Assembly: GCA_945870825.1 (NCBI GenBank)
Contig: CAMBTM010000001.1
Span: 26,926-90,925 of the forward strand
DNA from: Rhizobium sp. Q54
GTDB lineage: Bacteria; Pseudomonadota; Alphaproteobacteria; UBA7879; VGCX01
Direction: 5' to 3'
DNA length: 64,000 bases
Below the pieces are notes generated by a model. It did no database searches and was not told the DNA's origin. It worked only from the letters and a program-made list of their open reading frames with translations. Both the position numbers and the translations under genes were made by a program. Shown in pieces: positions 11,094 to 27,552 of this stretch (position 1 is its first letter; every line of letters starts with the position of its first letter).

Positions 11094-12611
11094 TTATTTT
11101 TCTTCGAACCAGTGTTCACGGGCCTTCATAATCAAGGCATTCGCATCGTCAAGACTGATCTTATTTTCACCCAAAATTTCGCGCAGTTCATCACCCGCAA
11201 GATCGGCAAAATCATCCAGGGTTTTAATATCCCCTTTCGCTAAGACAAGCCGTTGATCAGACGTAAGCCCTTTGAATGAAAGAAGATCCTTCTCCATTCC
11301 AAGATCTGTACATTCCTTTTCAATACGTTTTTTCTTTTCTTTAACAGCAACAACCGCACGGGCATGAAGCTCTTGCGCTACAGATTCATCAAACCCTTCA
11401 ATGGAAGAAAGATCTTCCAAATCACAGTCCGCCACTTCCTCAACAGAGGTGAACCCTTCTGCTGCCAAAAGGTGGCCAATGACCTCATCCACATCCAAAG
11501 ACTCAATAAAGTCCTGAGCACGCCTTTTGAACGTGGCTGCACGATTTTTCTCATCATCTTCTTCTGTCACAATGCTGATATCCATGCGGGTCAAGCCTGA
11601 GGCAAGACGCACATTTTGACCGCGGCGTCCAATGGCCAAGCTCAATTGATCAGCCGGCACAACCACCTCGACCTTGCCTTCGTCTTCATCAATGATGACT
11701 TTGCTAATTTCAGCAGGCGCCAAAGAATTCACAACAAACGTCGCAAGGTCCTCAGACCAAAGGACGATATCAACCTTTTCACCTTGGAGTTCATTCACAA
11801 CGGCTTGAACGCGGCTACCGCGCATTCCCACACAGGACCCAACAGGGTCAATAGAAGAATCCCGTGCCACAACTGCAATCTTTGCGCGGCTCCCCGGATC
11901 ACGCGCCACAGAAACAATTTCGACTAACCCATCTGAAATTTCAGGCACTTCTTGACGAAATAATTCTGCCATAAAGTTAGGGTGTGTTCTGGACAAAAAG
12001 ACCTGAGGTCCCCGTGGTTCTGGGCGCACATCCATGATGTAGACCAAAATCTTGTCTCCTGGGCGGAAGTTTTCGCGCGCGATACATTCATCACGGCGCA
12101 ACAAGGCCTCGCACTTTCCGATATCAACGATGTAATTACCATATTCATTGCGGCGGATAATGCCCGTTGCAATGTCACCCAAACGGGACTTGAATTCATT
12201 ATATTGACGATCACGCTCTGCCCCACGCACCCGCTGAGAAATCACCTGGCGAGCAGACTGAGCGGCAATACGACCAAACTGAACGGGGGGGAGCTCAGTA
12301 ATTACAAACCCGCCAACCTCAGCCTCTGGGTCAGATTTTTTAGCATCCGCCAGAAGAATCTGCAAAGAAGGTTCCGTAACCTCATCCACAATTTCTTGAT
12401 ACATGCCCAGATTCACAACCCCGGATATCCGGTCGATATACGCCCGAATGTCATTTTCAAGACCATATTTTGTGCGGGCTATTTTTTGAATAGCCTCTTC
12501 CATCGCCTTGACGACTTCCTCGCAGTCAATGCCTTTCTCACGCGCAACCGCATCAGCAATCTGCAAAATCTCACGACCTAGTGTAGCGCTCATCTTCGAT
12601 CCTCGAACCAT
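11094..12611 (-). CDS. nusA: Transcription termination/antitermination factor NusA
   Basis: 505 aa with NusA N-terminal, S1, KH and C-terminal acidic repeat regions. It sits immediately upstream of infB in the conserved order. The start may be the internal Met at about 12593. Confidence 0.93.
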   Translation of the reverse strand: MVRGSKMSATLGREILQIADAVAREKGIDCEEVVKAMEEAIQKIARTKYGLENDIRAYIDRISGVVNLGMYQEIVDEVTEPSLQILLADAKKSDPEAEVGGFVITELPPVQFGRIAAQSARQVISQRVRGAERDRQYNEFKSRLGDIATGIIRRNEYGNYIVDIGKCEALLRRDECIARENFRPGDKILVYIMDVRPEPRGPQVFLSRTHPNFMAELFRQEVPEISDGLVEIVSVARDPGSRAKIAVVARDSSIDPVGSCVGMRGSRVQAVVNELQGEKVDIVLWSEDLATFVVNSLAPAEISKVIIDEDEGKVEVVVPADQLSLAIGRRGQNVRLASGLTRMDISIVTEEDDEKNRAATFKRRAQDFIESLDVDEVIGHLLAAEGFTSVEEVADCDLEDLSSIEGFDESVAQELHARAVVAVKEKKKRIEKECTDLGMEKDLLSFKGLTSDQRLVLAKGDIKTLDDFADLAGDELREILGENKISLDDANALIMKAREHWFEEK

Positions 12612-12774
12612 TAAACTATCTTAAAAACAAAAGGCGGACCAACGTAACGTCTCGTCCACCCCTCTTACGTACAATTTTTCCAGATTATAAGGCTTTTCCA
12701 AAAACCTTCAAGCAGAATTTCATCAACCACTAAGAGAAAGATTTTTGATTTTAACCAGGGAGGCGGAAATCTCT

Positions 12775-12817
12775 CACTCAACACTAAATTACATTTAGTG
12801 TAACTTAGTGTTGAGTG
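12775..12817. repeat. Nested inverted repeats (CACTCAACACTAA...TTAGTGTTGAGTG with inner CACTAAA-TTACA-TTTAGTG) in the nusA / orphan-protein divergent region
   Basis: Read directly from the sequence. Confidence 0.55.
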
Positions 12818-12913
12818 GTACAAGTATCACGCTCTGCGTCATCCATATGGGTAAGCCAAAAAATCACATTCACTGCAGTTGAAAATATAAATAAAAATCC
12901 CTACATTGCATTT

Positions 12914-15736: not shown

Positions 15737-15808
15737 GTCCCTCTCCCCTTCTGGGACGCCAGGGCATGGCATGAAAAAATCTCTTTTTTGCCAACGCGTA
15801 CCCATTCT

Positions 15809-15845
15809 CCTTGTAAATCAACCATGCGATAGCTGATTTACAAGG
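15809..15845. repeat. 12-bp perfect inverted repeat CCTTGTAAATCA-N13-TGATTTACAAGG downstream of the orphan gene
   Basis: Seen directly. No T-run follows, so it is not a canonical terminator. Confidence 0.5.
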
Positions 15846-15866
15846 AAACCCCCTATGAACCTGTCC

Positions 15867-15970
15867 AAATTTGCAATCAAAATGCAAATTTGTCCGGCTT
15901 TTTCTGTTTTTTCTTGCAATATGGCATCGCTAATGCCATATTGAGACTCAAAGTGGCATTTCAGGTGCCA
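15867..15970 (+). promoter_or_regulatory. Palindrome-rich promoter region of the DUF4143 ATPase gene: AAATTTGCA-N7-TGCAAATTT plus two TGGCA-N7-TGCCA sites (centres 15930 and 15962, 32 bp apart)
   Basis: Three separate perfect palindromes lie within 105 bp, ending about 30 bp before the ATG at 15999. The first TGGCA site extends to the 11-bp arms CAATATGGCAT / ATGCCATATTG. Confidence 0.5.
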
Positions 15971-15998
15971 TTTTGCGTGTAGCAAAAAAGGGAAGACT

Positions 15999-17177
15999 AT
16001 GCACTTTATTCCAAGGTTTTTTAAGGATCCAGGCCAAAGTTTCTTTCTTTTTGGCCCCCGTGGCACAGGAAAATCAACCCTCATCAAGGCTCTCTATAAA
16101 GACGCCATTTGGATTGATTTATTAAAACCTGATGTGCTCCGTAGTTACCTTGCGTACCCAGAACGTTTGGGAAATCTTATTGAAGGTCAACCAAGTATAA
16201 AAACCATCGTCATCGATGAAATCCAAAAAGCCCCGCAATTATTAACGATGATCCATCATCTTATTGAAAAGAAAATAGGACTCAAGTTCATCCTCACAGG
16301 ATCCAGTGCCAGAAAGATTAAACGGATGGATGCTGATCTTTTGGGAGGGCGCGCTATTAAACGAGAGCTTTATCCTTTTATGGCAGCAGAACTTGGCGAT
16401 CAGTTTGACCTGAAGAGAGCTCTAAACAGGGGCCTCCTCCCCTTGTTAACAGCCTCACCTAATCCTGAAGATACGCTTACAACTTATAGTGCCCTTTACA
16501 TCCACGAAGAAGTTCAAACGGAAGGATTTATAAGAAATCTAGGGGATTTTTCAAGATTTTTAGAGGCTATTTCTTTCTCTCATGGCGCCATATTAAACAC
16601 GGCGAACATTGCAAGAGAGTGTGAAATCAAAAGAAAAACCGTTGAAAATTATTTAAACGTTCTTGAAGATCTTTTATTATGTTTTAAGGTGCCAGTATTC
16701 TCGAAACGGGCCACACGTATGCTGAGTGTTCATCCAAAGTTTTATCTTTTTGATGCAGGTCTTTATCAAGGGCTAAGGCCCCGGGGTATACTCGATAAGC
16801 CTGAGGAAATCGAAGGTGCTGCACTCGAAGGACTTGTTGCGCAGCATTTAAGAGCCTGGGTACAGTATACAAGTCAAAAACATAGTCTCAATTTCTGGCG
16901 AACACGATCAGGATCAGAAGTTGACTTCGTTGTATATGGAACCCTGGGATTTTGGGGAATAGAAGTTAAAAATACGACAAAAATCCGTCCCGAAGACTTA
17001 AAATCGTTGGAATCTTTTTTGGAAGAATATCCAGAGGCTACAGGATTCCTTCTCTATCGTGGGTCAGAACTTTTTAAAAGAAATAATATCTTATGTGTTC
17101 CTGTCGATATGTTCTTAAGAAATCTTGTTCCTGACATAGGACTCTGGGAACATATCCCTACCCCTCTTAAACCATAA
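15999..17177 (+). CDS. AAA+ ATPase, AAA_14 + DUF4143 family (COG1373-like)
   Basis: Walker A GPRGTGKST and Walker B IVIDEIQ are present. The C-terminal region is typical of the DUF4143 family. A diverged paralog lies at 25864. Confidence 0.8.
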   Translation: MHFIPRFFKDPGQSFFLFGPRGTGKSTLIKALYKDAIWIDLLKPDVLRSYLAYPERLGNLIEGQPSIKTIVIDEIQKAPQLLTMIHHLIEKKIGLKFILTGSSARKIKRMDADLLGGRAIKRELYPFMAAELGDQFDLKRALNRGLLPLLTASPNPEDTLTTYSALYIHEEVQTEGFIRNLGDFSRFLEAISFSHGAILNTANIARECEIKRKTVENYLNVLEDLLLCFKVPVFSKRATRMLSVHPKFYLFDAGLYQGLRPRGILDKPEEIEGAALEGLVAQHLRAWVQYTSQKHSLNFWRTRSGSEVDFVVYGTLGFWGIEVKNTTKIRPEDLKSLESFLEEYPEATGFLLYRGSELFKRNNILCVPVDMFLRNLVPDIGLWEHIPTPLKP

Positions 17178-17828
17178 AAATCGGCTCACGCGTCCAGCCC
17201 TCACGGCTTTTTCTTGAAACCGTGTTTGGGTCCAGAGGGGTGGAAAATCGGTCCAGGTGTTTGGATCATCGTTCAATAAAACAAGATCCTTAGACGCAGA
17301 TGCATGCTCTAAAATCCATTCAAAGTAATCGGCATGATCCGTTGCAATCAAAAGCTTGCCTTCTGTGGACAATTTCCGGGCCAGCAACGTCAACGTTGCG
17401 TGCTGAACAAACCGCCGTTTATGGTGGGCTTTTTTGGGCCAAGGATCTGGAAATAAAAGAAAGATATGATCAAAGCATCCATCGGGTACGGCCTCCAAAA
17501 GGTGAAGGGCATTGCCTGGATAAATCCGCACATTGGTCAAATGATCTTTATGGATATGCTCTAACAAATTGGCCACCCCATTGATGAAAGGCTCACACCC
17601 CACCATCAAGATATTGGGATGATTGATCGCCTGAAGGGCCAAGTGCTCACCCGAGCCAAACCCGATTTCCAAAAAACATCCCTTATAGTTTTCAACGTCA
17701 AATGCGCCGCTTATCCCGTCTTCTCCGACATTGATTTGAATTCTTGGCAAAAGGGTCTCAAGAAGGTCTTGTTTAAAGGGCTTGAGTTTGCGACCGCATC
17801 GTCGACCATAGGTGTTATGGGGCAACAT
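17115..17828 (-). CDS. trmB: tRNA (guanine-N7)-methyltransferase
   Basis: SAM-methyltransferase fold with EIGFGSGEHL and the LFPDPWPKKAHHKRR motif. Confidence 0.85.
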   Translation of the reverse strand: MLPHNTYGRRCGRKLKPFKQDLLETLLPRIQINVGEDGISGAFDVENYKGCFLEIGFGSGEHLALQAINHPNILMVGCEPFINGVANLLEHIHKDHLTNVRIYPGNALHLLEAVPDGCFDHIFLLFPDPWPKKAHHKRRFVQHATLTLLARKLSTEGKLLIATDHADYFEWILEHASASKDLVLLNDDPNTWTDFPPLWTQTRFQEKAVRAGRVSRFLWFKRGRDMFPESYVRNKIS

Positions 17829-19344
17829 GACGTCTCCTCAACACAAACTTTAACGCCATGAGAAGATAGATGATCCAACAGATGATTGGATAAGGATCCG
17901 CTTGGCTAACCAGGGCATAAAATGGCTTTTCTTGAAGTGGGGCCGGGAGGTAGAAGTCAGCTGTTTGAGCCTCTCCATAAGGCAATTGCAGCAGAATTTG
18001 TCCCAGCGGATCAATCACCGCTGAAATACCCGTATTGGCCACACGCACCACAGGCACACCCGATTCAATGGCCCGCATCTGGGCCATAGCCAAGTGTTGA
18101 TAGGGTTCTAGACTATGCAAAAACCATCCGTCATTGGTCAGGTTGAGTATCCACTGTGCCTGCGCCGTCTCTTTCGTCTGGAATTTTCCAGAAAAAATGG
18201 CCTCATGACAAATAAGGGGCATAAAACAAGGAAGGTCTTTGCTGCACAAAAGTTTTGGGGCATCCCCTGGGGTAAAGTCCCCCAGGCCCCCACTCATCTT
18301 ATGAATTTGTCCAGGCAGGATACTGTCAATAAAATGCCGGAAAGGAATGTATTCGCCAAAGGGCAGGAGACGGTGTTTGTCGTAAAAGGTAATCCCATAA
18401 CCGTCGTGGTCAAAGGCCATCATGCTGTTATACACTTTCCTATTCCCATAGCGAAACCCGTTGGTGATCAACACACCTGCTGCAGGACATGCCTTTTTGA
18501 TATAATCCATCATCCACCCATGCCGCTCTGGGCTTAGATGAAAATCAAACTCTGGCCATATAACCGCCTTCAAAGGATAATCACTGGGACGCGTGGAGAG
18601 TGTCACAAAATGATCCAGTCCCTCTCTCATGGCTTTTTTTGACATCATGACCCCTTGGGGGAAATTAGGCTGAACAAGGCGAAGATAAGGCGGATGAACG
18701 GCGGCCCGTGAAAGGTGGTTTATTCTGTGAGATCCATACCAAAAAGATCCTATAAAACTAACAACAACAAAGATCCCATATAAACCCTTGTATCTCTTAG
18801 TATAAAGAGGGCTCAAAAGAATATAGGGCGTTGCCAACCAGCAAAGAGTAATCCCGCTCAAAAGGTAGGGGCCCATAAGGGACGCCAACTGGGAAATGGG
18901 AAGACACGTTGTCCACATCGTCCCAAGGGAAGCCCAGGGAAATCCTGTCAGGAATTCTGCCCGTATGATATCAAGCAGAGCCCAAAGAAGCGCCAACCAA
19001 AAAATACGAAAAGGCAGCCGATAACGATACCAAGGAATAAACCAAGCCCCAACCCTATAATAAAAACTGAAAAAGAGGGGAAGTCCCAACAGAGCAAAAG
19101 GAATCAAATAACCATACTGAGTCCAATTCACATGAAGCGAACAGGGAATCCAATGTAATGCCATCAAGAAATACCCAAAAGCAAAGGACCCCATCGCAGG
19201 AACAGGATGGGGGGATGTTTCCCCTTGAAGCAGAAAAAAAGAAAGTCCCAATGAAAAGAAAAGTTGAAAGCCTGGAATAGGAACTGTACCAAGCCCTGCC
19301 ACAAGGCCCAAGAAAATGATCCGGAGAGTCTTCATTGACGGCAT
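17815..19344 (-). CDS. lnt: Apolipoprotein N-acyltransferase
   Basis: 509 aa with a multi-TM N-terminal half and a CN-hydrolase C-terminal half. It sits in the conserved lnt-ybeX-ybeY-phoH-miaB cluster. Confidence 0.85.
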   Translation of the reverse strand: MPSMKTLRIIFLGLVAGLGTVPIPGFQLFFSLGLSFFLLQGETSPHPVPAMGSFAFGYFLMALHWIPCSLHVNWTQYGYLIPFALLGLPLFFSFYYRVGAWFIPWYRYRLPFRIFWLALLWALLDIIRAEFLTGFPWASLGTMWTTCLPISQLASLMGPYLLSGITLCWLATPYILLSPLYTKRYKGLYGIFVVVSFIGSFWYGSHRINHLSRAAVHPPYLRLVQPNFPQGVMMSKKAMREGLDHFVTLSTRPSDYPLKAVIWPEFDFHLSPERHGWMMDYIKKACPAAGVLITNGFRYGNRKVYNSMMAFDHDGYGITFYDKHRLLPFGEYIPFRHFIDSILPGQIHKMSGGLGDFTPGDAPKLLCSKDLPCFMPLICHEAIFSGKFQTKETAQAQWILNLTNDGWFLHSLEPYQHLAMAQMRAIESGVPVVRVANTGISAVIDPLGQILLQLPYGEAQTADFYLPAPLQEKPFYALVSQADPYPIICWIIYLLMALKFVLRRRHVAP

Positions 19345-19347
19345 ATG

Positions 19348-20178
19348 CTAGTCTTTGTTCTTAATCAAAGCGCCCACATTGTAAAGACGCATGCGACGAA
19401 TGCCACGATTATGGACTTCGAGGATTTCAAAGGTTACCCCGCTTGGATGCTTGATAATTTCGCCCCGGTTGGGAATACGGCCTGCCAAAAGCAATACCAG
19501 CCCTGCCAATGTTTCTGGATCACTGTGGCGTTCTTTATCCGTTAACAACGTCCCAAAGTTTTCTTCAAACGTCTCGATAGAACAACGTCCATCAGCCATG
19601 ACACTGCGGCTAGCTGCATCGTAATCATAAAGAAGAGCATGATCCGTCAAAGAAAATTCCAAATGGCCCAACATTTTTGCAACGACCGTGTCCCCTGTCA
19701 CCAAGCCATCGACGCCACCAAACTCATCAACCACCACAGCCATATAATTTTTTTCTTCTTTCATCTTCACCAAAAGATCAAAACAAAGCATGGTCGGGGA
19801 TACAAAAAGAATTTTTTCGATATACTTCTTAAGATTAGAACTTTCATCGCGTTGAAGAATAATTTCCTTGATATGGATTTTACCCAATATGTTATCAAGA
19901 GTCCCATGACAAATAGGATAACGGGTATGGGAAAAGTCTTTAATCTTATTAAGATTTGCTTCAAGGGGCAGGGCCAAATCTAGCCATATGATATCACTTC
20001 TGGGCACCATCACATCTTCAACTGTTAATTGATTTAAGCGAATGATATTATTTAAAATGAAGTGTTTTTCAGATGAAACTGTTGGCAAATCGACCAAAGG
20101 TGTTACTGCTGCCGAAGTGGTTTTCTTCCACGGTAGTATTTTCTCAATAGCCTCAACTATTTTCTTGATCAACATCAT
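19348..20178 (-). CDS. ybeX: CBS-domain / CorC_HlyC transporter-associated protein (CorC/YbeX)
   Basis: Tandem CBS region plus a C-terminal CorC_HlyC-like domain. Conserved position next to ybeY. Confidence 0.8.
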   Translation of the reverse strand: MMLIKKIVEAIEKILPWKKTTSAAVTPLVDLPTVSSEKHFILNNIIRLNQLTVEDVMVPRSDIIWLDLALPLEANLNKIKDFSHTRYPICHGTLDNILGKIHIKEIILQRDESSNLKKYIEKILFVSPTMLCFDLLVKMKEEKNYMAVVVDEFGGVDGLVTGDTVVAKMLGHLEFSLTDHALLYDYDAASRSVMADGRCSIETFEENFGTLLTDKERHSDPETLAGLVLLLAGRIPNRGEIIKHPSGVTFEILEVHNRGIRRMRLYNVGALIKNKD

Positions 20179-20660
20179 GTCAGCTCATAGGGGTTAGAAA
20201 TACCACATTGGGCCAGGATGAAAACCTCCAAGGCTTCCATTTCTTCTGCCTCATGCTGATCTTCATGGTCATATCCCATCAGGTGCAAAAAACCATGAAC
20301 CATCATATGAAGGACATGGTGGATAAAATTTTTACCCTGTGACTCAGCATCCCTCTTAATTGTTTCATAGGACAGGATAATATCGCCTAAATTCAAATTT
20401 TCAATGGATAATACATCCCCCTTGGAAAAATTCTCCTGGGGAAAGCTTAAAACATCGGTCGGTTTATTCTTTCCACGATACTGGTCATTCAAACTTTGAA
20501 TAAAAGAATCATTTGCCAACACAACGGACACTTCGAATGCCGGAGAAATCCCTAAATGATCGGCTGCTGCGTTAATAACGCCTGCAATATCTTCCTGTGA
20601 AAGACAGTCCTGCCACAAAGATGACTGGTAAAGACAATCAATCGTTCTAAGATTATGCAT
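20175..20660 (-). CDS. ybeY: rRNA maturation endoribonuclease YbeY
   Basis: Zinc motif HGFLHLMGYDHE. Confidence 0.9.
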   Translation of the reverse strand: MHNLRTIDCLYQSSLWQDCLSQEDIAGVINAAADHLGISPAFEVSVVLANDSFIQSLNDQYRGKNKPTDVLSFPQENFSKGDVLSIENLNLGDIILSYETIKRDAESQGKNFIHHVLHMMVHGFLHLMGYDHEDQHEAEEMEALEVFILAQCGISNPYELT

Positions 20661-21486
20661 AGGCCTTCACAATCGCTGAAACGAGGGGATGGCGCACCAC
20701 GTCATCGGCACCAAATTCGACAAAAGAAAGAGACGGGATATTTTTAAACCGACTCATCGCATCCAAAAGCCCTGATTGTTGGGAAACGGGCAGATCAATT
20801 TGGGTTGCATCCCCCGTAACCACCATCCGAGATCCTTCCCCAAGACGCGTTAGAAACATTTTCATCTGAAGAACCGTTGTATTTTGGGCTTCATCCAAGA
20901 TCACATAGGCATCACAGAGGGTCCGACCCCGCATAAAAGCAAGGGGTGCAATCTCGATCACACCTGTTGCGATTAGTTTTTCAACCTGGGGCCCTGGGAA
21001 CATATCATAAAGGGCATCGTAAATGGGACGTAGATAAGGATCCACTTTTTCTTTTAAGTCACCTGGAAGAAACCCTAGCCGTTCGCCTGCCTCAATCGCA
21101 GGACGTGATAAAATCAAACGCTCCACCTTGCCAGCCATCAGCATGGATGCCCCCATGGCAACAGCCAAGTAAGTCTTTCCAGTGCCTGCAGGACCAACCC
21201 CAAAAACAAGCTCGTCTTTTTCAAGGGCTTTGATGAAAGTTGCCTGGGATGGCGACCTTGGGAATATAAATCGATTAGACGTCTTGAGATGAATTTTTAC
21301 ATCTCCTTCTTTGACAGGCGCCTTGGACATGCGTACAGATCCGTCAACATCAGAAAGGCTAATCGTCTCTCCCTTTTCTAACCGCTTAATCAACGCGTTT
21401 AAAACACTGGTTGTTTGAGAAATATTATTTTGTTCGCCTTCAATAAGCAGAACATTGCCGCGAGAATGAATATGCACCTGCAACAA
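20653..21486 (-). CDS. ybeZ: PhoH-family ATPase (YbeZ)
   Basis: Walker A GPAGTGKTYLA and the PhoH core. Confidence 0.9.
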   Translation of the reverse strand: MLQVHIHSRGNVLLIEGEQNNISQTTSVLNALIKRLEKGETISLSDVDGSVRMSKAPVKEGDVKIHLKTSNRFIFPRSPSQATFIKALEKDELVFGVGPAGTGKTYLAVAMGASMLMAGKVERLILSRPAIEAGERLGFLPGDLKEKVDPYLRPIYDALYDMFPGPQVEKLIATGVIEIAPLAFMRGRTLCDAYVILDEAQNTTVLQMKMFLTRLGEGSRMVVTGDATQIDLPVSQQSGLLDAMSRFKNIPSLSFVEFGADDVVRHPLVSAIVKAYA

Positions 21487-21572
21487 AGATTCAAGGCGTT
21501 TAATATGTTCGCTTTGAAATCCAACAAGCTGTTGGAGAATTTGATTGTTAGAAACGATGAAAGATTCTGTTG

Positions 21573-22964
21573 TTATTGTAACTCTCCCTTTAGGCTATTA
21601 TCAAAGGCTTCTATGACCTTTATCTCATGCACCTGCCCCATTATGTTATCACCGTTTGAAAGGATATGTACAGACTGCATATGAGGACTTTTTCCCAAAT
21701 ATTGATCGGCTCGTTTCCCTTGCCTTTCAAAAAGAACTGGGATGCTTTTACCAAGGAAACTTTGATTAAAAGACTCTTGTTGGGCATGTATCAATGTCTG
21801 CAGTCTCTGGAGACGTTCTTTTTTAATCTCTTCGTCCACTTGGGTTTCAATGCCTGCAGCAGGCGTCCCGGGTCTGCGACTATAGGAAAAACAATAAGCC
21901 TGGCCATATTGGACCCGTTCAACAAGGGATAGCGTATCTTCAAAGTCTTTCTCGGTTTCTCCTGGGAACCCTACGATAAAGTCAGAAGAAAATCCGATGT
22001 CGGGGCGTACATGGCGCAACTTTTGAATAACCTCTTCATAAAAAGCAACTGTGTGTTTCCGGTTCATCAATTTCAAGATGGCATCCGACCCTGATTGAAC
22101 AGGCAGATGCAGAAAGGGCATTAACTTAGGTGAATCCCCATGGGCTTGAATCAAGGCATCGTCCATGTCCTTGGGGTGGGATGTCATATAACGTAGGCGT
22201 TCTAGTCCCTCGATATTGGAAAGTTCAAGGCACAAGGGCCCAAGCCCCCATACCCCCTGACCACTTTGAGAAATACCGTGGTAAGCATTCACATTTTGAC
22301 CCAACAAGGTAATCTCTTTCGCCCCTAGCGCTACATAACGCTTAGCTTCTGCAACAATATCCCCAACGGGTCTTGAATATTCAGCACCCCGTGTGTAAGG
22401 CACACAACAAAAGGTACAGAACTTGTCGCACCCTTCTTGAATCGTTAAAAAGGCTGAGACGCGTGGGTTATCGCTAACAGCTGGGATGTGGTCAAACTTG
22501 GATTCAACGGGAAAGTCTGCATAGACGATCTTATCTTTTCTATACTCTTTTCCTTTTTTCTTATCCATCTGATTGATATGAAAGGCACGGGTGGCGCGCT
22601 CAATCATTTCTGGTAATTTATGGTACGCTTGGGGACCCAAAACAATATCCACATAGGGCGCGCGTTTGATAATCTCGCCGCCTTCTGCCTGACCGACGCA
22701 TCCTGCAACGGCCAAAATAAACTGACGCCCCTCTGCGGTACGCTCTTTCTTCAAAGATTGATAACGGCCTATTTCACTATAGACTTTTTCCGTCGCTTTC
22801 TCCCGAATATGGCACGTATTCAAAATAACCATGTCGGAAGAAGTCGGATCATCCGTCAACTCATAACGATGAGGCCCCAAAATATCCGCCATCTTCTCAG
22901 AGTCATAGACATTCATCTGACAGCCATAAGTCTTGATGTAAAGTTTTTTAGGAGATTCTGACAT
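21573..22964 (-). CDS. miaB: tRNA-i6A37 methylthiotransferase MiaB
   Basis: UPF0004 N-terminal domain, radical-SAM CxxxCxxC (CDKFCTFC) and a TRAM C-terminus. Confidence 0.9.
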   Translation of the reverse strand: MSESPKKLYIKTYGCQMNVYDSEKMADILGPHRYELTDDPTSSDMVILNTCHIREKATEKVYSEIGRYQSLKKERTAEGRQFILAVAGCVGQAEGGEIIKRAPYVDIVLGPQAYHKLPEMIERATRAFHINQMDKKKGKEYRKDKIVYADFPVESKFDHIPAVSDNPRVSAFLTIQEGCDKFCTFCCVPYTRGAEYSRPVGDIVAEAKRYVALGAKEITLLGQNVNAYHGISQSGQGVWGLGPLCLELSNIEGLERLRYMTSHPKDMDDALIQAHGDSPKLMPFLHLPVQSGSDAILKLMNRKHTVAFYEEVIQKLRHVRPDIGFSSDFIVGFPGETEKDFEDTLSLVERVQYGQAYCFSYSRRPGTPAAGIETQVDEEIKKERLQRLQTLIHAQQESFNQSFLGKSIPVLFERQGKRADQYLGKSPHMQSVHILSNGDNIMGQVHEIKVIEAFDNSLKGELQ

Positions 22965-22976
22965 GATTCAACCCGC

Positions 22977-23432
22977 TTATCGGGATGCCGTGCGCTTAGG
23001 TGCTGAATAACGACCGATGTTACCAAAGAGTTCAGACACAAGACTTGGATCACGCCCCTTAACAGGCGTTGCCCCAGATTTCACCTCAACGTCATAATGA
23101 TGGGAAAGGTCCCTAATTTCGTAACCACTCACTGTACCATCTGGTCCAAAACTAACGGCTAAAATTTCACGTTCCAAAACCTTTGGATCAAAGAAAGCCT
23201 TTTTCTCCGTCTTGTCGCCAATATAATACCAAACGTCCCCACCAAAGAGTTCTTTGCTAGAAGGAGGCCCCAATAATTCTTGAAGTTCTGGTTTCTTTGT
23301 TTTGTTTAACTCAATTTTCTTTAGTTCATCCATGTCAAAAAAATTGCCACGCACATACTGCGTTGGTGTACAAGAAACCAGAGACAATCCCAATAAACCC
23401 AAAACAAAAGACCAATAATATTTGTATGTCAT
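22977..23432 (-). CDS. bamE: Outer-membrane protein assembly factor BamE (SmpA/OmlA lipoprotein)
   Basis: Lipobox LSLVSC after a signal peptide. About 150 aa, SmpA_OmlA-like. Confidence 0.7.
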   Translation of the reverse strand: MTYKYYWSFVLGLLGLSLVSCTPTQYVRGNFFDMDELKKIELNKTKKPELQELLGPPSSKELFGGDVWYYIGDKTEKKAFFDPKVLEREILAVSFGPDGTVSGYEIRDLSHHYDVEVKSGATPVKGRDPSLVSELFGNIGRYSAPKRTASR

Positions 23433-23572
23433 TTAAAACCCATGATGCTGATGAAGCATGGCATAAATTCCCATAACCCCCACCCCCTGTCAATGCTTGT
23501 TTTTTCTTGCTCCATATAAAATAATTATTTAATATAAAATAAAATATAAAATAATTAACAGGGATTAAAAAG

Positions 23573-24337
23573 ATGAAAAATGAAAGAATACACCGATCAT
23601 ATGCTTTGTTTGTTGTGCTCATTTGCTTCCTCGGCATCTTTTTTTGGACAATGCAGGATTCCAACGCTGCACAAACGTCCATAGAACGGCCCCGCAGAGA
23701 GATCCCCCTCAACAAAGCGCTCTCAAAATTGCTGCCTGCCCCAAAAACTGTTGTGGAACAAGAAAATATTGGCAATAAATATCGCATTGCAATGACCGAT
23801 GTGGAATTCGTTAAAAAAAGAGATATTATCACAAAACTATTTACAACATACCCCAATCTTGTGGCGGTCCTGGATGTTGGGGGAAAATTTGTATCAAAGA
23901 AAGGTGTGTTGACCTTAACAAAGAAAGAGTTCAACCCTGCCATACATCACCTAATCATTACCAACCATAAAAACAACGTCAAAAGAATTGGGGCTTTTTT
24001 CTTGGCAGAATGTCGTAGCCTGCTTTCCCTAACCCTTTATCCCCTCATCAACCTGACCAGCATCAATGGATATTTTCTTGCTGAATGTACAAAACTGAAG
24101 ACGTTGAATCTTGGATGCCTCCACAGCGTTGAGTCCATTGGACACAGTTTCCTTGCCAACTGTCGTGCACTGATGCATCTGGATCTAAAACCCCTCCAAA
24201 ATGTGAGGAAAATCGGTCAATTATTTCTCTCTGGTTGTGGGCACCTTAAAGATGTTGATTTCACGCAATTGCACAAAGTAAAACGTGTGACACACCCTAA
24301 ACCCAACACCTCTGGGTTTGAGGTCATTAAAGATTAG
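23573..24337 (+). CDS. Leucine-rich-repeat (BspA-type LRR) membrane-anchored protein
   Basis: N-terminal TM/signal anchor followed by at least four ~23-aa repeats: IGAFFLAECRSLLSLTL, INGYFLAECTKLKTLNL, IGHSFLANCRALMHLDL, IGQLFLSGCGHLKDVDF. It is preceded by an AT-rich ATAAAATA repeat promoter. Confidence 0.6.
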   Translation: MKNERIHRSYALFVVLICFLGIFFWTMQDSNAAQTSIERPRREIPLNKALSKLLPAPKTVVEQENIGNKYRIAMTDVEFVKKRDIITKLFTTYPNLVAVLDVGGKFVSKKGVLTLTKKEFNPAIHHLIITNHKNNVKRIGAFFLAECRSLLSLTLYPLINLTSINGYFLAECTKLKTLNLGCLHSVESIGHSFLANCRALMHLDLKPLQNVRKIGQLFLSGCGHLKDVDFTQLHKVKRVTHPKPNTSGFEVIKD

Positions 24338-24402
24338 GTAAAATACACATCTTGCACTCCCTTCCCCCATGGACTATGCTACTTTAAAAACATGGTCCTA
24401 TA

Positions 24403-25791
24403 ATGTTCGTACTCTTATTGATTATATTCGGGTTATCCACCCTTTCCCTTTGTGCAGAGGGTCATTTAGACGGATCCACCCTCAGTCTATGGTGGGGAGC
24501 GCCCTTTTCGCTGATTCTTTTATCTCTGGCTGTAGGCCCTACACTCTTGGGACGTTTTTGGCATCGACATTATAGTAATATTATCCTAGGGTTTACCCTT
24601 GCGTTTCTACTGCCAGCATGCCAGTTTTTTGGCTTCCAGACTATTATTCATGAGGTCAGACATTACCTGTTTTTGGAATATATCCCCTTCGTTACATTAA
24701 TTGGGGCACTGTTTATTGTCACTGGCGGTATTCGTCTTAATGCCCAATGGGAAGGAACACCTAAAAGCAACTGTATGGTTTTAGGTCTTGGCACCCTTGC
24801 TGCAAGTTTCATTGGCACCACGGGGGCGAGCATGCTGTTGATTCGACCCCTCATTCGCGGTAATGCTTGGAGATCCCATAAAGCCCACATCATCATCTTC
24901 TTTATCTTTCTCGTTGCCAATATTGGTGGCGCCCTGACCCCCCTTGGAGACCCCCCTCTTTTCTTAGGTTTTCTTGAAGGGGTTCCCTTTTTCTGGCCCA
25001 TGACCCATATGGTGGGCCCCTTAGCCGTTACAGCTGGCACAGCCCTTGGCATATTTTATTTCCTTGACCAGTATTTTTATAAAAAGGAAAAAGGGCCGAT
25101 ACACTCTGCAGATAAAAAAGTTCATGCCCTTTCAATCTCTGGAGGTCTCAATCTATTTTTTCTTCTCTGTATTATGGGTGCAGTCCTTCTCAGCGGCCTT
25201 TGGAAGCCAGGGATAACCCTGGGGATTTTAAAACTCGAAAATATAACCCGTGATGGGATTTTGTTGTTAATTACCCTACTTTCTTTAAAATTTACGCCCC
25301 AGTCTATACGACAAAAAAATCAGTTTTCCCTTGATCCACTAAAAGAAGTTGCACGTGTTTTTCTAGGCATTTTTATTACGGTTATCCCTGTCTTAAGCAT
25401 TCTAAAAGCAGGCACAGAAGGGGCCCTCGCGCCTTTTATTGCCCTTGCTAACCATGATGGAGTCCCATGCAACCCAGCCTACTTTTGCCTGACAGGTTTC
25501 TTTTCCAGTGTCCTTGATAATGCCCCGACTTATTTTGTCTTTTTCAATATGGCAGGAGGAGATGTGACAGCTCTCACTACAACCCTATCCCAAACATTGC
25601 TTGCTATCTCAACGGGGGCTGTCTTTATGGGGGCCCTGACCTATATCGGCAATGCCCCTAACTTTATGGTCAAAGCTGTCGCTGAAACCCATCACATTAA
25701 AATGCCTACTTTCTTGGGCTATATGGGCTGGTCTTTGGTTGTCCTCACGCCTATTTTTCTTCTCGTGACCTGGATTTTTTTCATCTCATAG
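24403..25791 (+). CDS. Ion-transporter-superfamily permease (ArsB/NhaD/CitMHS-like)
   Basis: 462 aa, about 12 TM, with the GDPPLFLGF motif. Family assignment is approximate. Confidence 0.5.
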   Translation: MFVLLLIIFGLSTLSLCAEGHLDGSTLSLWWGAPFSLILLSLAVGPTLLGRFWHRHYSNIILGFTLAFLLPACQFFGFQTIIHEVRHYLFLEYIPFVTLIGALFIVTGGIRLNAQWEGTPKSNCMVLGLGTLAASFIGTTGASMLLIRPLIRGNAWRSHKAHIIIFFIFLVANIGGALTPLGDPPLFLGFLEGVPFFWPMTHMVGPLAVTAGTALGIFYFLDQYFYKKEKGPIHSADKKVHALSISGGLNLFFLLCIMGAVLLSGLWKPGITLGILKLENITRDGILLLITLLSLKFTPQSIRQKNQFSLDPLKEVARVFLGIFITVIPVLSILKAGTEGALAPFIALANHDGVPCNPAYFCLTGFFSSVLDNAPTYFVFFNMAGGDVTALTTTLSQTLLAISTGAVFMGALTYIGNAPNFMVKAVAETHHIKMPTFLGYMGWSLVVLTPIFLLVTWIFFIS

Positions 25792-25863
25792 AAGCGTATA
25801 TATAGCGATCTAAATCCTTGAAAATCTGATAATTGAGTATTATAATCCCTATATATCGGATAT

Positions 25864-27033
25864 TTGTGGAATATAAAAATGCATTTTAAGCGATATTTGA
25901 CCTTTCATTTGCCTGACCAACAATCTGCTTTTCTTTGGGGAGCAAGGAAAACTGGGAAATCAACCTTCCTAAAAGAGAAATTCCCAACAGCAGTTTACAT
26001 AGACCTTTTAAGGGCTGATGTTTATCAAGGATATCTTCGAAAACCAGAAAAACTGAGGGAAGAATTTCGTGGATTCACAGACCCCCTAACCATCATTATT
26101 GACGAAGTCCAAAAAGTTCCCATCCTTCTGGACGAAATTCATGGTCTCATCGAAGACAGAAAAAATCTTCAGTTTATTCTATGCGGATCAAGTGCTAGAA
26201 GATTAAGACAACCAGGCGTGAATTTATTGGGTGGCAGAGCCTGGAGGTTCATGTTTTTGCCACTTTGCTATCCCGAAATTCAAGAACTCAATTGGTCTCA
26301 TATTTTTAACAGAGGTCTTATCCCAAGCCACTACGTGTCACCATCTTGGGAAAAAAATCTTGCAGCTTATCTTTATGACTACGTCTTAACAGAAGTTCAT
26401 TTAGAGGCAGATATCCGGAAAAAAGAGTCTTTTGCCAGATTTCTAGATGTTCTTGGATTTTGTCATGGAACGCTTATCAATTACACCAATATCGCCCGAG
26501 ACTGTGGGGTCAACAGCAAAACAGTCATGACCTATTTTGAGATTCTGGAAGATATGTATTTAGGTTATTTTCTAAGGCCATTTCGATCAAGAAGCAGTCG
26601 TCAAATTGTTCAAAAAACACCCAAATTCTACCTCTTTGACACAGGCGTTGCCAATTATCTTAAGCGATATGAATTCAAAGAAATGAGAGGGGCTGACGCT
26701 GGCGCAAGTTTTGAACATTACGTATTTTTGGAATTGATGGCATACAAACTGCTGACAGATAAGCGGGATAACATTTTTTTCTGGAGAACAAAAGAAAAGC
26801 ATGAGGTAGACTTCATTGTTCAAGATATGGCTTTTGAAGTCAAAATTTCAACACCTATCGAAAAAAATGACATAAAAAACCTTCTCATTTTTGCCCAAGA
26901 TCATGCAATGTCTCTTCACATCATCTCTCTGGAACATCGAAAAAGAGTCATGCGAGAAGGAACCAAAGAAGTAACCGTATGGCCAATTCAAGACTTCCTA
27001 GAGGCCCTTTGGGGGGGAGATCTATGGAAATAA
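25864..27033 (+). CDS. AAA+ ATPase, AAA_14 + DUF4143 family (paralog of 15999..17177)
   Basis: Walker A GARKTGKST and Walker B IIIDEVQ. About 35-40% identical to the first copy by eye. The start is possibly the Met at 25879. Confidence 0.8.
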   Translation: MWNIKMHFKRYLTFHLPDQQSAFLWGARKTGKSTFLKEKFPTAVYIDLLRADVYQGYLRKPEKLREEFRGFTDPLTIIIDEVQKVPILLDEIHGLIEDRKNLQFILCGSSARRLRQPGVNLLGGRAWRFMFLPLCYPEIQELNWSHIFNRGLIPSHYVSPSWEKNLAAYLYDYVLTEVHLEADIRKKESFARFLDVLGFCHGTLINYTNIARDCGVNSKTVMTYFEILEDMYLGYFLRPFRSRSSRQIVQKTPKFYLFDTGVANYLKRYEFKEMRGADAGASFEHYVFLELMAYKLLTDKRDNIFFWRTKEKHEVDFIVQDMAFEVKISTPIEKNDIKNLLIFAQDHAMSLHIISLEHRKRVMREGTKEVTVWPIQDFLEALWGGDLWK

Positions 27034-27057
27034 ACCTGCGTATCGTTTTCAACCCAT

Positions 27058-27090
27058 CATAAAAACGGCCCCGAAGGGCCGTCTTTATAC
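27058..27090. terminator. Bidirectional Rho-independent terminator (ACGGCCC-CGAA-GGGCCGT flanked by A/T runs) between the ATPase paralog and ros/mucR
   Basis: GC-rich perfect hairpin with AAAAA upstream and a T-run on the minus strand. Confidence 0.65.
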
Positions 27091-27111: not shown

Positions 27112-27552
27112 TTAGGCAACAGCAACTTTCTTAATACGGCGGCTTGTTCCAAGACCGATGGTCTTTGCCAAACGGCTCCGTTGCTTTGCATAGTTTGGTG
27201 CAACCGTTGGGTAATCTGCTGGAAGGCCCCAACGTTCACGATATTCTTGAATGCTCATGCCATAAACAGCTTTCAGATGGCGCTTTAACATTTTAAGTCT
27301 TTTTCCATCTTCAAGACAGATAATATAGTCTGGTGTGACGGATTTTTTGATCGCAACGGCAGGTGTTGGACGCCCTGGTCGGCCTCTTCCCTGGTCGTGA
27401 ACTGCAGCAAGAGCTGCATAGACTTGTTCGATGATCCCTGGCAAATCAGAAATCTGAACATCGTTATTACTAACATGTGCTGAAACAATATCTGCTGTTA
27501 AAGTAAGTACTTGATCCACTGTATTTAAGTTTTCGTTCATCTTACGCTCCAT
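27112..27552 (-). CDS. mucR: Ros/MucR-family zinc-finger transcriptional regulator
   Basis: Signature VTPDYIICLEDGKRLKMLKRHL...YGMSIQEYRERWGLP. Confidence 0.9.
   Translation of the reverse strand: MERKMNENLNTVDQVLTLTADIVSAHVSNNDVQISDLPGIIEQVYAALAAVHDQGRGRPGRPTPAVAIKKSVTPDYIICLEDGKRLKMLKRHLKAVYGMSIQEYRERWGLPADYPTVAPNYAKQRSRLAKTIGLGTSRRIKKVAVA

What the first reader, a model, noticed from the sequence alone, without database searches (positions are those of the whole stretch)
15999..27033. Diverged paralogous AAA_14/DUF4143 ATPases bracketing a ~9 kb block
Two ~390-aa AAA+ ATPases of the same poorly characterised family, roughly 35-40% identical, lie 8.7 kb apart on the same strand. Between them is the conserved trmB-lnt-ybeX-ybeY-phoH-miaB-bamE block plus an LRR protein and a transporter. 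COG1373-type ATPases have no established function. Duplicated copies in one neighbourhood hint at a multi-copy family, possibly tied to defence or to mobile or xenogeneic DNA. That would fit the MucR-family regulator encoded convergently against the second copy.
Basis: partly seen in the sequence, partly recalled or inferred. Interest (0 to 1): 0.5.

Follow-up and report, generated by a model that had tools for sequence, protein, structure and literature searches.

The report
Two separately inserted ATPase-nuclease gene cassettes
Two genes for the same very common but uncharacterised ATPase-plus-nuclease family flank a housekeeping gene block because each was inserted there separately as a small stand-alone foreign cassette, not because one was copied from the other.

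Summary
Copy A (15999-17177, +) and copy B (25879-27033, +; ATG start preferred over TTG 25864) are intact AAA_14+DUF4143 proteins. They are 39% identical and lie 8.7 kb apart, around trmB-lnt-corC-ybeY-phoH-miaB-bamE, an LRR gene and a CitMHS transporter.

They are not local duplicates.
- Each copy is 60-79% identical to proteins elsewhere. A's relatives span more than 20 phyla; B's are in Rickettsiales/Holosporales-type bacteria.
- The two closest relatives of this organism (MiaB 81-82%) keep the same flanking genes and lack copy B. The one that also covers the trmB border lacks copy A.
- The nearest homologues sit in unrelated contexts.

Each copy is therefore an independent insertion of about 1.25 kb, carrying its own promoter and palindromic operator, next to the 3' end of a convergent host gene.

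The family is already catalogued as the untested PADLOC candidate PDC-S01. It combines a STAND/Orc1-like NTPase, a wHTH and a PD-(D/E)xK nuclease, and all catalytic residues are kept here. The defence reading is plausible but unproven; the neighbours here are housekeeping genes. MucR's position predates copy B.

One extra lead: about 9% of homologous genes are flanked by 17-152 nt direct repeats with no recombinase between them, which hints at a self-contained mobile cassette.

The parts
15999..17177 (+). Copy A: AAA_14 NTPase, wHTH and DUF4143 PD-(D/E)xK nuclease, 392 aa
   Evidence: - Pfam domains; PADLOC PDC-S01, E 5e-55.
- AlphaFold model pLDDT 91.9.
- Walker A G19/G24/K25/T27, Walker B D73/E74 and nuclease D309/E322/K324 are invariant across 57 homologues.
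- The last 7 residues (IPTPLKP) extend beyond where the nearest homologues end.
15905..15998 (+). Copy A's own regulatory region: two palindromes TGGCAT-N5-ATGCCA/TGCCA (15922-15938, 15954-15970) around a third, TTGAGACTCAA (15941-15951); weak TTGCAA-N17-CATATT promoter
   Evidence: - The region is conserved with homologues that lie in other genomic contexts (L003, L096, L014, L018).
- A TGGnn/nnCCA inverted repeat is present upstream of 35 of 76 A-type genes, against 4.6% of background windows, p = 6e-26.
- The promoter was read by eye; it scores below the scanner's threshold.
15893..17158 (.). Inferred extent of the copy A insertion (about 1.27 kb)
   Evidence: - Left edge: homology to the empty site in L012 ends at 15892, and homology to L003 begins at about 15911.
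- Right edge: homology to L003 ends at about 17152, and trmB homology to L012 ends at 17158.
15848..15892 (-). Host hairpin element just downstream of trmB in the relative; it marks the left border of the A insertion
   Evidence: - 95.6% identical to L012 8056-8100, while flanking genes are about 70% identical.
- Perfect 15-bp arms in L012.
- Stable fold, z = -4.1; single copy in the window.
17115..17828 (-). trmB, with its 3' end extended by about 14 codons into the A insertion; 63-nt overlap with copy A
   Evidence: TrmB ends ...RFLWFRKA* in L012 and similarly in L008 and L010. In the window it ends ...RFLWFKRGRDMFPESYVRNKIS*.
17115..23432 (-). Conserved housekeeping block trmB-lnt-corC-ybeY-phoH-miaB-bamE
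   Evidence: Pfam. The same order occurs in L008, L010 and L012, except that L012 lacks phoH; GCA_041447075.1 covers only the bamE-miaB-phoH end.
25879..27033 (+). Copy B: AAA_14, wHTH and DUF4143 nuclease, 384 aa (alternative TTG start at 25864)
   Evidence: Pfam; PADLOC PDC-S01, E 2e-50; the exact 384-aa product is on record; the same invariant catalytic residues are present.
25818..25875 (+). Copy B's own promoter (TTGAAA-17-TATAAT, 25818-25846) and a 35-bp imperfect palindrome (25841-25875, centre ATATCGGATAT) overlapping the -10 box
   Evidence: - Promoter scan matches 11 of 12 positions; coordinates.
- Related palindromes (ATATCNGATAT; GGAGTATACTCC and GGAATATATTCC) lie upstream of B-type genes in L006 and in many of L099-L178.
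25792..27064 (.). Approximate extent of the copy B insertion, between the CitMHS_2 stop codon and the shared terminator
   Evidence: The CitMHS_2-MucR spacer is 59 bp in L012/L013 and 53 bp in GCA_041447075.1, with no gene in it. The exact edges cannot be mapped because the spacers have diverged.
27065..27082 (.). G+C-rich hairpin between copy B and mucR (likely a shared terminator)
   Evidence: Terminator scan.
27112..27552 (-). MucR/Ros regulator; ancestral at this position and not part of the insertion
   Evidence: Pfam ROS_MUCR, E 3e-47. tblastx gives 87% identity to the L012 copy at the same place. The same position is seen in GCA_041447075.1.

Best explanation
The two genes are independent insertions of two deeply diverged members of one family, AAA_14/DUF4143 (COG1373), which PADLOC lists as PDC-S01.

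Each insertion is a self-contained cassette of about 1.25 kb. It carries its own promoter, a palindromic operator and one ORF. Each landed in an intergenic spacer at a border of a conserved housekeeping block, next to the 3' end of a convergent host gene (trmB for A, mucR for B). The 'bracketing' of the block is a coincidence of two insertion events.

Shown: the encoded protein is a three-part machine. It has a STAND/Orc1-Cdc6-like NTPase, a winged helix-turn-helix and a PD-(D/E)xK nuclease, and every catalytic residue is intact in both copies.

Inferred: the protein binds DNA through the wHTH, including its own operator (autorepression). It uses NTP-driven assembly to switch on the nuclease against particular DNA. 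The most likely target is invading DNA, which makes it a stand-alone candidate defence gene.
For: Not duplicates of each other:
- A and B are 39% identical.
- A has relatives at 60-79% identity, including TM6/Babeliales, Legionellales, Planctomycetota, Chlamydiae and candidate-phyla bacteria.
- B has relatives at 60-78% identity in Holosporales, Rickettsiales and Rickettsia.
- For scale, this organism's MiaB is only about 60% identical to that of other named alphaproteobacteria.

Insertions:
- L012/L013 (MiaB 81%) have MucR|CitMHS_2-BamE-MiaB-YbeY-CorC-Lnt-TrmB|NusA-InfB with neither ATPase.
- GCA_041447075.1 (MiaB 82%) has RecA-TsaB-GNAT-MucR|CitMHS_2-BamE-MiaB-PhoH without copy B.
- L008 and L010 also lack an ATPase at the block borders.

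Direction of the change at site A:
- The relatives' TrmB proteins end alike, while the window's TrmB runs on for 14 extra codons.
- Copy A runs 7 codons past its homologues' stop.
- Each ORF therefore reads into the other across the junction.

Portable cassette:
- The nearest A homologues (74-77%) lie in two further unrelated contexts with the same upstream palindromes.
- The nearest B homologues lie after a 16S rRNA gene (L006) and on a plasmid-like contig (L094).
- G+C is lower in A (40.7%) and B (39.2%) than in most neighbours.

Protein:
- Pfam; invariant Walker A/B residues and D309/E322/K324.
- Model pLDDT 91.9.
- Foldseek also finds the CARF-wHTH-nucleases Cdn1 and VC1899.
- DUF4143 is listed as a PD-(D/E)xK family (PMC3424549).

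Defence candidate: PADLOC PDC-S01, E 5e-55 and 2e-50 (10.1101/2024.01.29.577857; PMC12988326).

Operator: inverted repeats are enriched upstream of family genes, 35 of 76 against 4.6% of background windows, p = 6e-26. Their half-sites vary between lineages and occur in two arrangements around the promoter, which favours a DNA site over an RNA hairpin.
Against: - Function is not demonstrated for any family member.
- The one published test of a PDC-S01 gene (E. coli B against T4, T5 and T7) was not among the four candidates reported to protect (PMC12881386).
- There is no defence context here. The neighbours are housekeeping genes.
- Among 142 immediate neighbours of A-type genes, 137 Pfam families appear and none is a recurrent defence or mobility family.
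- Binding of the operator by the protein itself is inferred only. An association between the half-site sequence and residue 211 is suggestive but confounded by relatedness.
- The edges of the B insertion cannot be mapped exactly. For B, the direction of change rests on two relatives and on the scattered contexts of its homologues.
- Copy number across the whole source genome could not be counted.
Confidence: 0.6

Rival explanations
1. Selfish mobile cassette. The gene with its operator is itself a minimal mobile element. The ATPase-nuclease promotes its own insertion or homing at the 3' ends of genes and hairpins. Any 'defence' signal would be a by-product.
For: - 12 of 130 family genes are flanked by exact direct repeats of 17 nt or more, up to 152 nt in L018. 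Only 4 of 425 control ORFs of similar size in the same loci are, p = 1.4e-5.
- In the eight A-type loci examined in detail, the DNA between the repeats is 1.21-1.49 kb and holds only this gene.
- In those loci the downstream repeat starts between -10 and +49 nt of the stop codon, often inside the 3' end of a neighbouring gene or of rnpB (L096). This is the same geometry as copy A against trmB.
- The family has spread across phyla and sits in scattered contexts.
Against: - No terminal inverted repeats were found.
- Repeat length varies widely, unlike a fixed transposase footprint.
- Only about 9% of genes show repeats, and neither window copy does convincingly. A has only a 28-nt match at 71% identity; B has none.
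- Copies within one locus are always diverged (24-62% identity). There is no sign of recent bursts within a genome.
- Repeats could also come from a recombinase acting in trans, or from single-crossover integration of a circle carrying a piece of the target.
Confidence: 0.25
2. Remnants of a local tandem or segmental duplication in this lineage, later separated by rearrangement.
For: The two genes share a family and a strand and lie within 10 kb.
Against: - They are 39% identical to each other but 60-79% identical to genes in other organisms.
- Their upstream operators differ.
- Both are absent from the syntenic locus of L012, and copy B also from GCA_041447075.1.
- There are no pseudogene fragments in the window.
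Confidence: 0.03
3. A functional partnership with the local genes: a role in the tRNA-modification and membrane block, or a MucR-controlled module with copy B.
For: - The genes are adjacent, and B is convergent with mucR.
- MucR is a known silencer of AT-rich foreign genes in alphaproteobacteria (PMC9410896, PMC8857273), and B is AT-rich.
Against: - The block and MucR keep their positions in relatives that lack the ATPases.
- Homologues have unrelated neighbours.
- General silencing of B by MucR remains possible, but it would not depend on adjacency.
Confidence: 0.05

Closest known systems
PADLOC phage defence candidate PDC-S01 (AAA_14 + DUF4143, COG1373)
   Same: Both copies match its profiles strongly (E 5e-55 and 2e-50). 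They share the single-gene ATPase plus PD-(D/E)xK architecture described in PMC12988326.
   Different: PDC-S01 was nominated because some members are embedded in RM, BREX or DISARM loci (10.1101/2024.01.29.577857). These two copies sit among housekeeping genes. The candidate has no demonstrated activity, and one test listed no protection (PMC12881386).
Archaeal ATPases SSO1545 (2fna) and PAB2304 (2qen), Arch_ATPase type
   Different: Only 19-23% identical. The alignment covers about 232 of 392 residues and so does not account for the C-terminal DUF4143 nuclease. Their function is also unknown.
STAND NTPases of immunity (Avs5, plant NLRs, CED-4/Apaf-1)
   Different: There are no repeat-type sensor domains, the protein is much smaller, and the nuclease is C-terminal. 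Oligomerisation is not known.
Orc1/Cdc6 and DnaA-type initiators
   Same: AAA+ module followed by a wHTH that binds specific DNA repeats. 2qby_B is the top Foldseek match.
   Different: Initiators have no nuclease domain. There is no evidence here of an origin function.
CARF-wHTH-PD-(D/E)xK nucleases (Cdn1 9u49, VC1899 1xmx)
   Same: Full-length Foldseek matches with the same order: nucleotide-binding domain, wHTH, PD-(D/E)xK nuclease.
   Different: Their N-terminal sensor is a CARF domain that binds cyclic oligoadenylate, not a P-loop NTPase. TM-scores are low (about 0.2).
Integrative islands at the 3' ends of tRNA, tmRNA or rnpB genes, and transposons with target duplications
   Same: In about 9% of homologous loci the cassette is flanked by direct repeats of the target, often the 3' end of a gene or of rnpB.
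   Different: No integrase or transposase lies between the repeats, there are no terminal inverted repeats, and repeat length runs from 17 to 152 nt. The window copies lack clear repeats.

Membership tests
AAA_14/DUF4143 (COG1373; PADLOC PDC-S01) | Significant match to the Pfam AAA_14 and DUF4143 models, in that order | tested here: met
   Both copies score above the curated cut-offs.
AAA_14/DUF4143 (COG1373; PADLOC PDC-S01) | Match to the PADLOC PDC-S01 profiles | tested here: met
   PDLC04790: E 5e-55 for A and 2e-50 for B. Five to six further PDC-S01 models also match.
AAA_14/DUF4143 (COG1373; PADLOC PDC-S01) | Embedded in, or next to, known defence systems (the basis of the candidate's nomination) | tested here: not met
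   Window neighbours are trmB, nusA, CitMHS_2 and mucR. Among 142 neighbours of 76 homologues there is no recurrent defence family other than 3 further PDC-S01 genes.
AAA_14/DUF4143 (COG1373; PADLOC PDC-S01) | Protects against phage or plasmids | not testable with these tools
   Untested by its proposers (10.1101/2024.01.29.577857). One representative was not among the protective candidates in PMC12881386.
P-loop AAA+/STAND NTPase | Walker A (GxxxxGK[ST]) and Walker B (hhhhDE) motifs, with the matching fold | tested here: met
PD-(D/E)xK nuclease superfamily | Catalytic D ... (D/E)xK motif on the core beta-strands | tested here: met
   D309, E322 and K324 are invariant and E277 nearly so. They lie on strands E307-314 and E317-323 of the model. 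The family is listed in PMC3424549.
Recent tandem or segmental duplicate pair | The two copies are each other's closest relatives | tested here: not met
   39% identity to each other against 60-79% to sequences elsewhere.
Transposon or insertion sequence | Encodes a recognisable transposase or recombinase | tested here: not met
   The insert holds only the ATPase-nuclease ORF.
Transposon or insertion sequence | Terminal inverted repeats and a target-site duplication of fixed length | tested here: inconclusive
   No terminal inverted repeats were found. Direct repeats flank 12 of 130 homologues but range from 17 to 152 nt. The window copies have none that is convincing.
Integrase-type genomic island | Integrase gene plus att repeats at the 3' end of an RNA gene | tested here: not met
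   The rnpB 3'-end repeat in L096 fits att-like geometry, but no integrase is present. The window sites are not RNA genes.

The most novel reading that the evidence does not exclude
AAA_14/DUF4143 (PDC-S01) genes may be one-gene mobile elements. In this reading the ATPase-wHTH-nuclease recognises the cassette's own palindromes. It then drives insertion or homing of the roughly 1.3-kb unit at the 3' ends of genes, RNA genes or hairpins, leaving long direct repeats of variable length. The two window copies would be older insertions of this kind whose repeats have decayed.
Probability: 0.2. Interest if true: 0.85.

Novelty: new member of a known kind. Interest (0 to 1): 0.5.

Why it matters
PDC-S01 (COG1373) is reported as the fourth most common 'defence' call across prokaryotes (PMC12988326), yet no member has a demonstrated function.

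This locus gives a clean natural before-and-after comparison. The same chromosome segment is seen with and without the gene, at two sites. For copy A the junctions can be mapped to within a few bases.

The comparison shows three things:
- The unit that moves is just the gene plus a short palindromic control region.
- It lands beside the 3' ends of host genes.
- The family need not sit in a defence island.

The conserved operators and the repeat-flanked cassettes in other genomes give concrete, cheap experiments. These are gel shifts, reporter fusions, nuclease assays and tests for excision or insertion. They could settle whether this very abundant family is an immune gene, a selfish element, or both.

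Tried and rejected
- A third copy or fragments in the window: none found.
- Solved structures by sequence: only P-loop matches.
- NCBIfam: nothing meaningful.
- Source organism: the exact-sequence look-up gave no accession or name, and the source genome was not among the 80 genome-contig loci kept. A genome-wide paralogue count was therefore impossible.
- A two-gene cassette of the 973-aa ORF with copy A: rejected. The ORF upstream of the nearest A homologue (520 aa in L003) is unrelated. The conserved host hairpin also separates the 973-aa ORF from copy A, so they are two insertions.
- Direct repeats at the window junctions: only a weak 28-nt match at 71% identity for A (15892-15919 against 17192-17219), and nothing for B. 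Treated as chance or inconclusive.
- Terminal inverted repeats at the ends of the repeat-flanked cassettes: none.
- Residues co-varying with the operator half-site: position 211 (K/S with TGGC, E with TGGA) ranks high, but the signal is confounded by relatedness.
- Link to plasmids or phages: 267 of 72,556 plasmids and 6 of 50,697 phage records carry only distant relatives, under 36% identity. There is no enrichment.
- Rfam: only three tRNAs in the window, and no known RNA family at either site.
- The RNA-hairpin reading of the upstream palindromes is judged less likely. The same half-sites occur in flipped order straddling the -35 and -10 boxes in the more distant homologues.
Full report
**1.

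ORFs 15999-17177 (+) and 25864-27033 (+) exist. Both carry AAA_14 followed by DUF4143, above Pfam's cut-offs. They are 39% identical over 333 residues, E 2e-74.

Copy B most likely starts at the ATG at 25879. That 384-aa product, not the TTG form, is on record in public assemblies.

Between the two copies lie trmB, lnt, corC, ybeY, phoH, miaB and bamE on the - strand. They are followed by an LRR_5 gene and a CitMHS_2 transporter on the + strand. MucR, a GNAT, tsaB and recA follow copy B. A 973-aa ORF with no Pfam match, nusA and infB precede copy A.

The rest of the window is ordinary alphaproteobacterial core chromosome: class II RNR, MipZ, PlsX and GatA. No third copy or fragment is present.

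**2. They are not duplicates of each other**

Copy A has relatives at 60-79% identity. At 46-63% it has relatives in MAGs labelled as more than 20 phyla, including Legionellales, Planctomycetota, Chlamydiae, Bacteroidota, Nitrospirota and candidate-phyla bacteria.

Copy B has relatives at 60-78% identity in Holosporales, Rickettsiales, Rickettsia and other alphaproteobacterial MAGs.

In a joint alignment, A is 60-77% identical to A-type sequences and 34-39% identical to B-type sequences. For scale, this organism's MiaB is only about 60% identical to MiaB of other named alphaproteobacteria. The A-type gene has therefore crossed phylum boundaries.

**3. Both are insertions**

The closest relatives by MiaB are L012/L013 (81%) and GCA_041447075.1 (82%).
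- L012 reads MucR | CitMHS_2 - BamE - MiaB - YbeY - CorC - Lnt - TrmB | NusA - InfB. Its spacers are 59 bp and 347 bp, with no ATPase.
- GCA_041447075.1 reads RecA - TsaB - GNAT - MucR | CitMHS_2 - BamE - MiaB - PhoH, with a 53-bp spacer.
- More distant relatives (L008 and L010, 74%) keep the block but have no ATPase at its borders.

DNA alignment maps the A insertion.
- The left half of L012's trmB-nusA spacer is a hairpin element that is 95.6% conserved. It now lies at 15848-15892.
- The right half, the nusA promoter and leader, lies at 12611-12815.
- The 973-aa ORF therefore went in on one side of the hairpin, and copy A on the other, at about 15893-17158.

The window state is the derived one. 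TrmB ends ...RFLWF(R/G)K..* in three relatives, but in the window it runs on for 14 extra codons. Copy A's nearest homologues end ...GLWDQ*, but copy A continues with IPTPLKP. Each ORF lost its own stop codon and reads into the other, which produces the 63-nt overlap.

For copy B the edges are blurred by spacer divergence. Two relatives agree on the empty site.

The LRR_5 gene is also absent from L012, L008 and GCA_041447075.1.

G+C is 40.7% for A and 39.2% for B, against 44-48% for most neighbours. This is only mildly suggestive.

**4. The cassette travels with its own control region**

The nearest A homologues lie in other contexts.
- P0004 (77%) sits between an orphan ORF and an aminotransferase.
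- P0006 (74%) sits next to rnpB and cell-wall genes.

DNA similarity to the window starts about 90 bp upstream of the ATG and ends at the stop codon. That upstream stretch holds two TGGCAT-N5-ATGCCA/TGCCA palindromes (15922-15938, 15954-15970) around TTGAGACTCAA.

Across 76 A-type loci, an inverted repeat of TGGnn/nnCCA half-sites lies within 120 bp upstream in 35. Only 4.6% of background windows have one, p = 6e-26. Two further properties point to a DNA-binding site rather than an RNA hairpin:
- The half-sites differ between lineages (GGCAT, GGAGT, GGAAT).
- In the more distant homologues they flank the -35 and -10 boxes in flipped order.

Copy B has a strong promoter at 25818-25846, matching 11 of 12 positions. 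A 35-bp imperfect palindrome at 25841-25875 overlaps its -10 box. Related palindromes (ATATCNGATAT, GGAGTATACTCC) recur upstream of B-type genes.

The only thing that travels with these sites is the gene itself, and its product contains a wHTH. Autoregulation is therefore the simplest inference, but it is untested. A residue/half-site association at position 211 is only suggestive.

**5. The protein**

The AlphaFold model is confident, with pLDDT 91.9.
- Foldseek also returns the CARF-wHTH-PD-(D/E)xK nucleases Cdn1 and VC1899 over the full length.
- Walker A, Walker B, R118 and the nuclease triad D309/E322/K324 are invariant in 57 sequences, including both window copies.
- DUF4143 is listed as a PD-(D/E)xK family (PMC3424549).

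The mechanism I commit to is as follows. An NTP-gated, DNA-binding nuclease represses its own promoter through the wHTH. When triggered, it cuts DNA. The architecture and intact active sites are shown. The trigger, the target and the autoregulation are inferred.

**6. What is known about the family**

Both copies match PADLOC's PDC-S01.
- PDC-S01 is one of 145 untested candidates. They were nominated because members are embedded in RM, BREX or DISARM loci (10.1101/2024.01.29.577857).
- It is reported as the fourth most common 'defence' call in prokaryotes and is described as an ATPase fused to a PD-(D/E)xK domain (PMC12988326).
- In one test of eight candidates in E. coli B against T4, T5 and T7, PDC-S01 was not among the four that protected (PMC12881386).
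- COG1373 is variable among Rickettsia genomes (PMC2635572) and appears among genes shared between gut genera (PMC10782964).

The family is large: 11,126 clusters at 50% identity match at E of 1e-3 or better.

Context does not support a defence island.
- 142 immediate neighbours of A-type genes fall into 137 Pfam families, mostly housekeeping.
- Relatives are rare and distant on plasmids (267 of 72,556 records) and in phage records (6 of 50,697).
- One B-type homologue does sit on a plasmid-like contig with a second, diverged copy in tandem.
- Two or more copies within one locus occur in 13 of 164 loci, and L016 has five.

**7. An unexplained extra**

In 12 of 130 family genes, the gene plus its control region is flanked by exact direct repeats of 17 nt or more. 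Only 4 of 425 control ORFs of similar size in the same loci are so flanked, p = 1.4e-5.

Eight A-type loci were examined in detail.
- Repeats reach 152 nt in L018 (145 of 152 positions identical).
- The DNA between them is 1.21-1.49 kb and holds only this gene.
- The downstream repeat starts within -10 to +49 nt of the stop codon.
- The repeat often lies in the 3' end of a neighbouring gene, or of RNase P RNA in L096.
- No recombinase gene or terminal inverted repeats are present.

B-type genes show the same kind of flanking repeats in four loci.

The geometry matches copy A against trmB, although neither window copy has a convincing repeat.

Two readings remain open. This could be a one-gene mobile element. 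Alternatively, integration could be by a trans-acting recombinase or by single crossover of a circle. I cannot tell which.

**8. Verdict**

The 'duplicated paralogues' reading is wrong. The 'multi-copy, foreign, possibly defence' reading is broadly right and already in the literature. The MucR link is coincidental, because MucR is ancestral at that site. General silencing of AT-rich copy B by MucR remains possible (PMC9410896).

This is a new member of a known but uncharacterised kind. It comes with a useful natural insertion polymorphism and a lead on mobility.

Noticed in passing
window 15905-15998 and 25818-25875; loci L003, L006, L014-L093, L099-L178: Family genes carry lineage-specific palindromic half-sites just upstream: TGGCAT/ATGCCA, TGGAGT/ACTCCA, GGAGTATACTCC. 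They overlap or flank the promoter and move with the gene across phyla. They look like an autoregulatory operator.
   Followed up: partly
L018 9753-9904 and 11188-11339; also L081, L069, L079, L083, L070, L072, L096, L128, L175, L177, L158: Direct repeats of 17-152 nt flank the single ATPase-nuclease gene, spaced about 1.23-1.56 kb start to start. No recombinase lies between them. They occur in 12 of 130 family genes against 4 of 425 control ORFs.
   Followed up: partly
L096 170-191 and 1482-1503; rnpB at 1477-1832 (-): In one A-type homologue the flanking repeat is the last 22 nt or so of RNase P RNA. The ATPase stop codon abuts the 3' end of rnpB, an att-like geometry without an integrase.
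   Followed up: partly
window 15848-15892: A 45-bp hairpin element is 95.6% identical to the relative L012, while flanking genes are about 70% identical. It sits just downstream of trmB in L012 and now separates two independent insertions. Its function is unknown; it may be a terminator or a protein-binding site.
   Followed up: partly
window 17115-17177: Copy A and trmB overlap convergently by 63 nt. Both ORFs lost their native stop codons at the insertion junction and read into each other. TrmB gains 14 codons and copy A gains 7.
   Followed up: yes
window 12815-15736: A 973-aa ORF has no Pfam, NCBIfam or PADLOC match and low G+C (41.6%). It is absent from the syntenic trmB-nusA spacer of L012, so it is a separate lineage-specific insertion. 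It is unrelated to the ORF upstream of the nearest A homologue.
   Followed up: partly
window 23573-24337: A BspA-type LRR_5 gene lies between bamE and the CitMHS_2 transporter. It is absent at that spot in L012, L008 and GCA_041447075.1, which makes it a third or fourth lineage-specific insertion in this 15-kb stretch.
   Followed up: partly
window 12815-27033: All four lineage-specific genes (the 973-aa ORF, copy A, LRR_5 and copy B) are on the + strand. Nearly all conserved genes around them are on the - strand.
   Followed up: no
L012 4457-4470, compared with window 20653-21486: phoH is missing between miaB and ybeY in the close relative L012. It is present in the window, L008, L010 and GCA_041447075.1, which points to a loss specific to that relative.
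   Followed up: no
L016 10001-19617: A Planctomycetia MAG carries five diverged family members (24-62% identical to copy A) on one strand within 10 kb.
   Followed up: no
L094 8001-10420: A B-type homologue (67%) sits in tandem with a 28%-identical second family member on a plasmid-like contig. The contig also carries RPA, ParA, ArdC, a resolvase, YoeB/YefM, Fic and PDDEXK_2 genes.
   Followed up: partly
L006 1-1641 and 2028-3182: The nearest B homologue (78%) lies about 390 nt downstream of the 3' end of a 16S rRNA gene. Three copies of its operator-like repeat lie in between.
   Followed up: partly
window 40591-41208: A Fic-domain gene sits in the lowest-G+C kilobase of the window (38.4%). 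It may be another accessory insertion.
   Followed up: no
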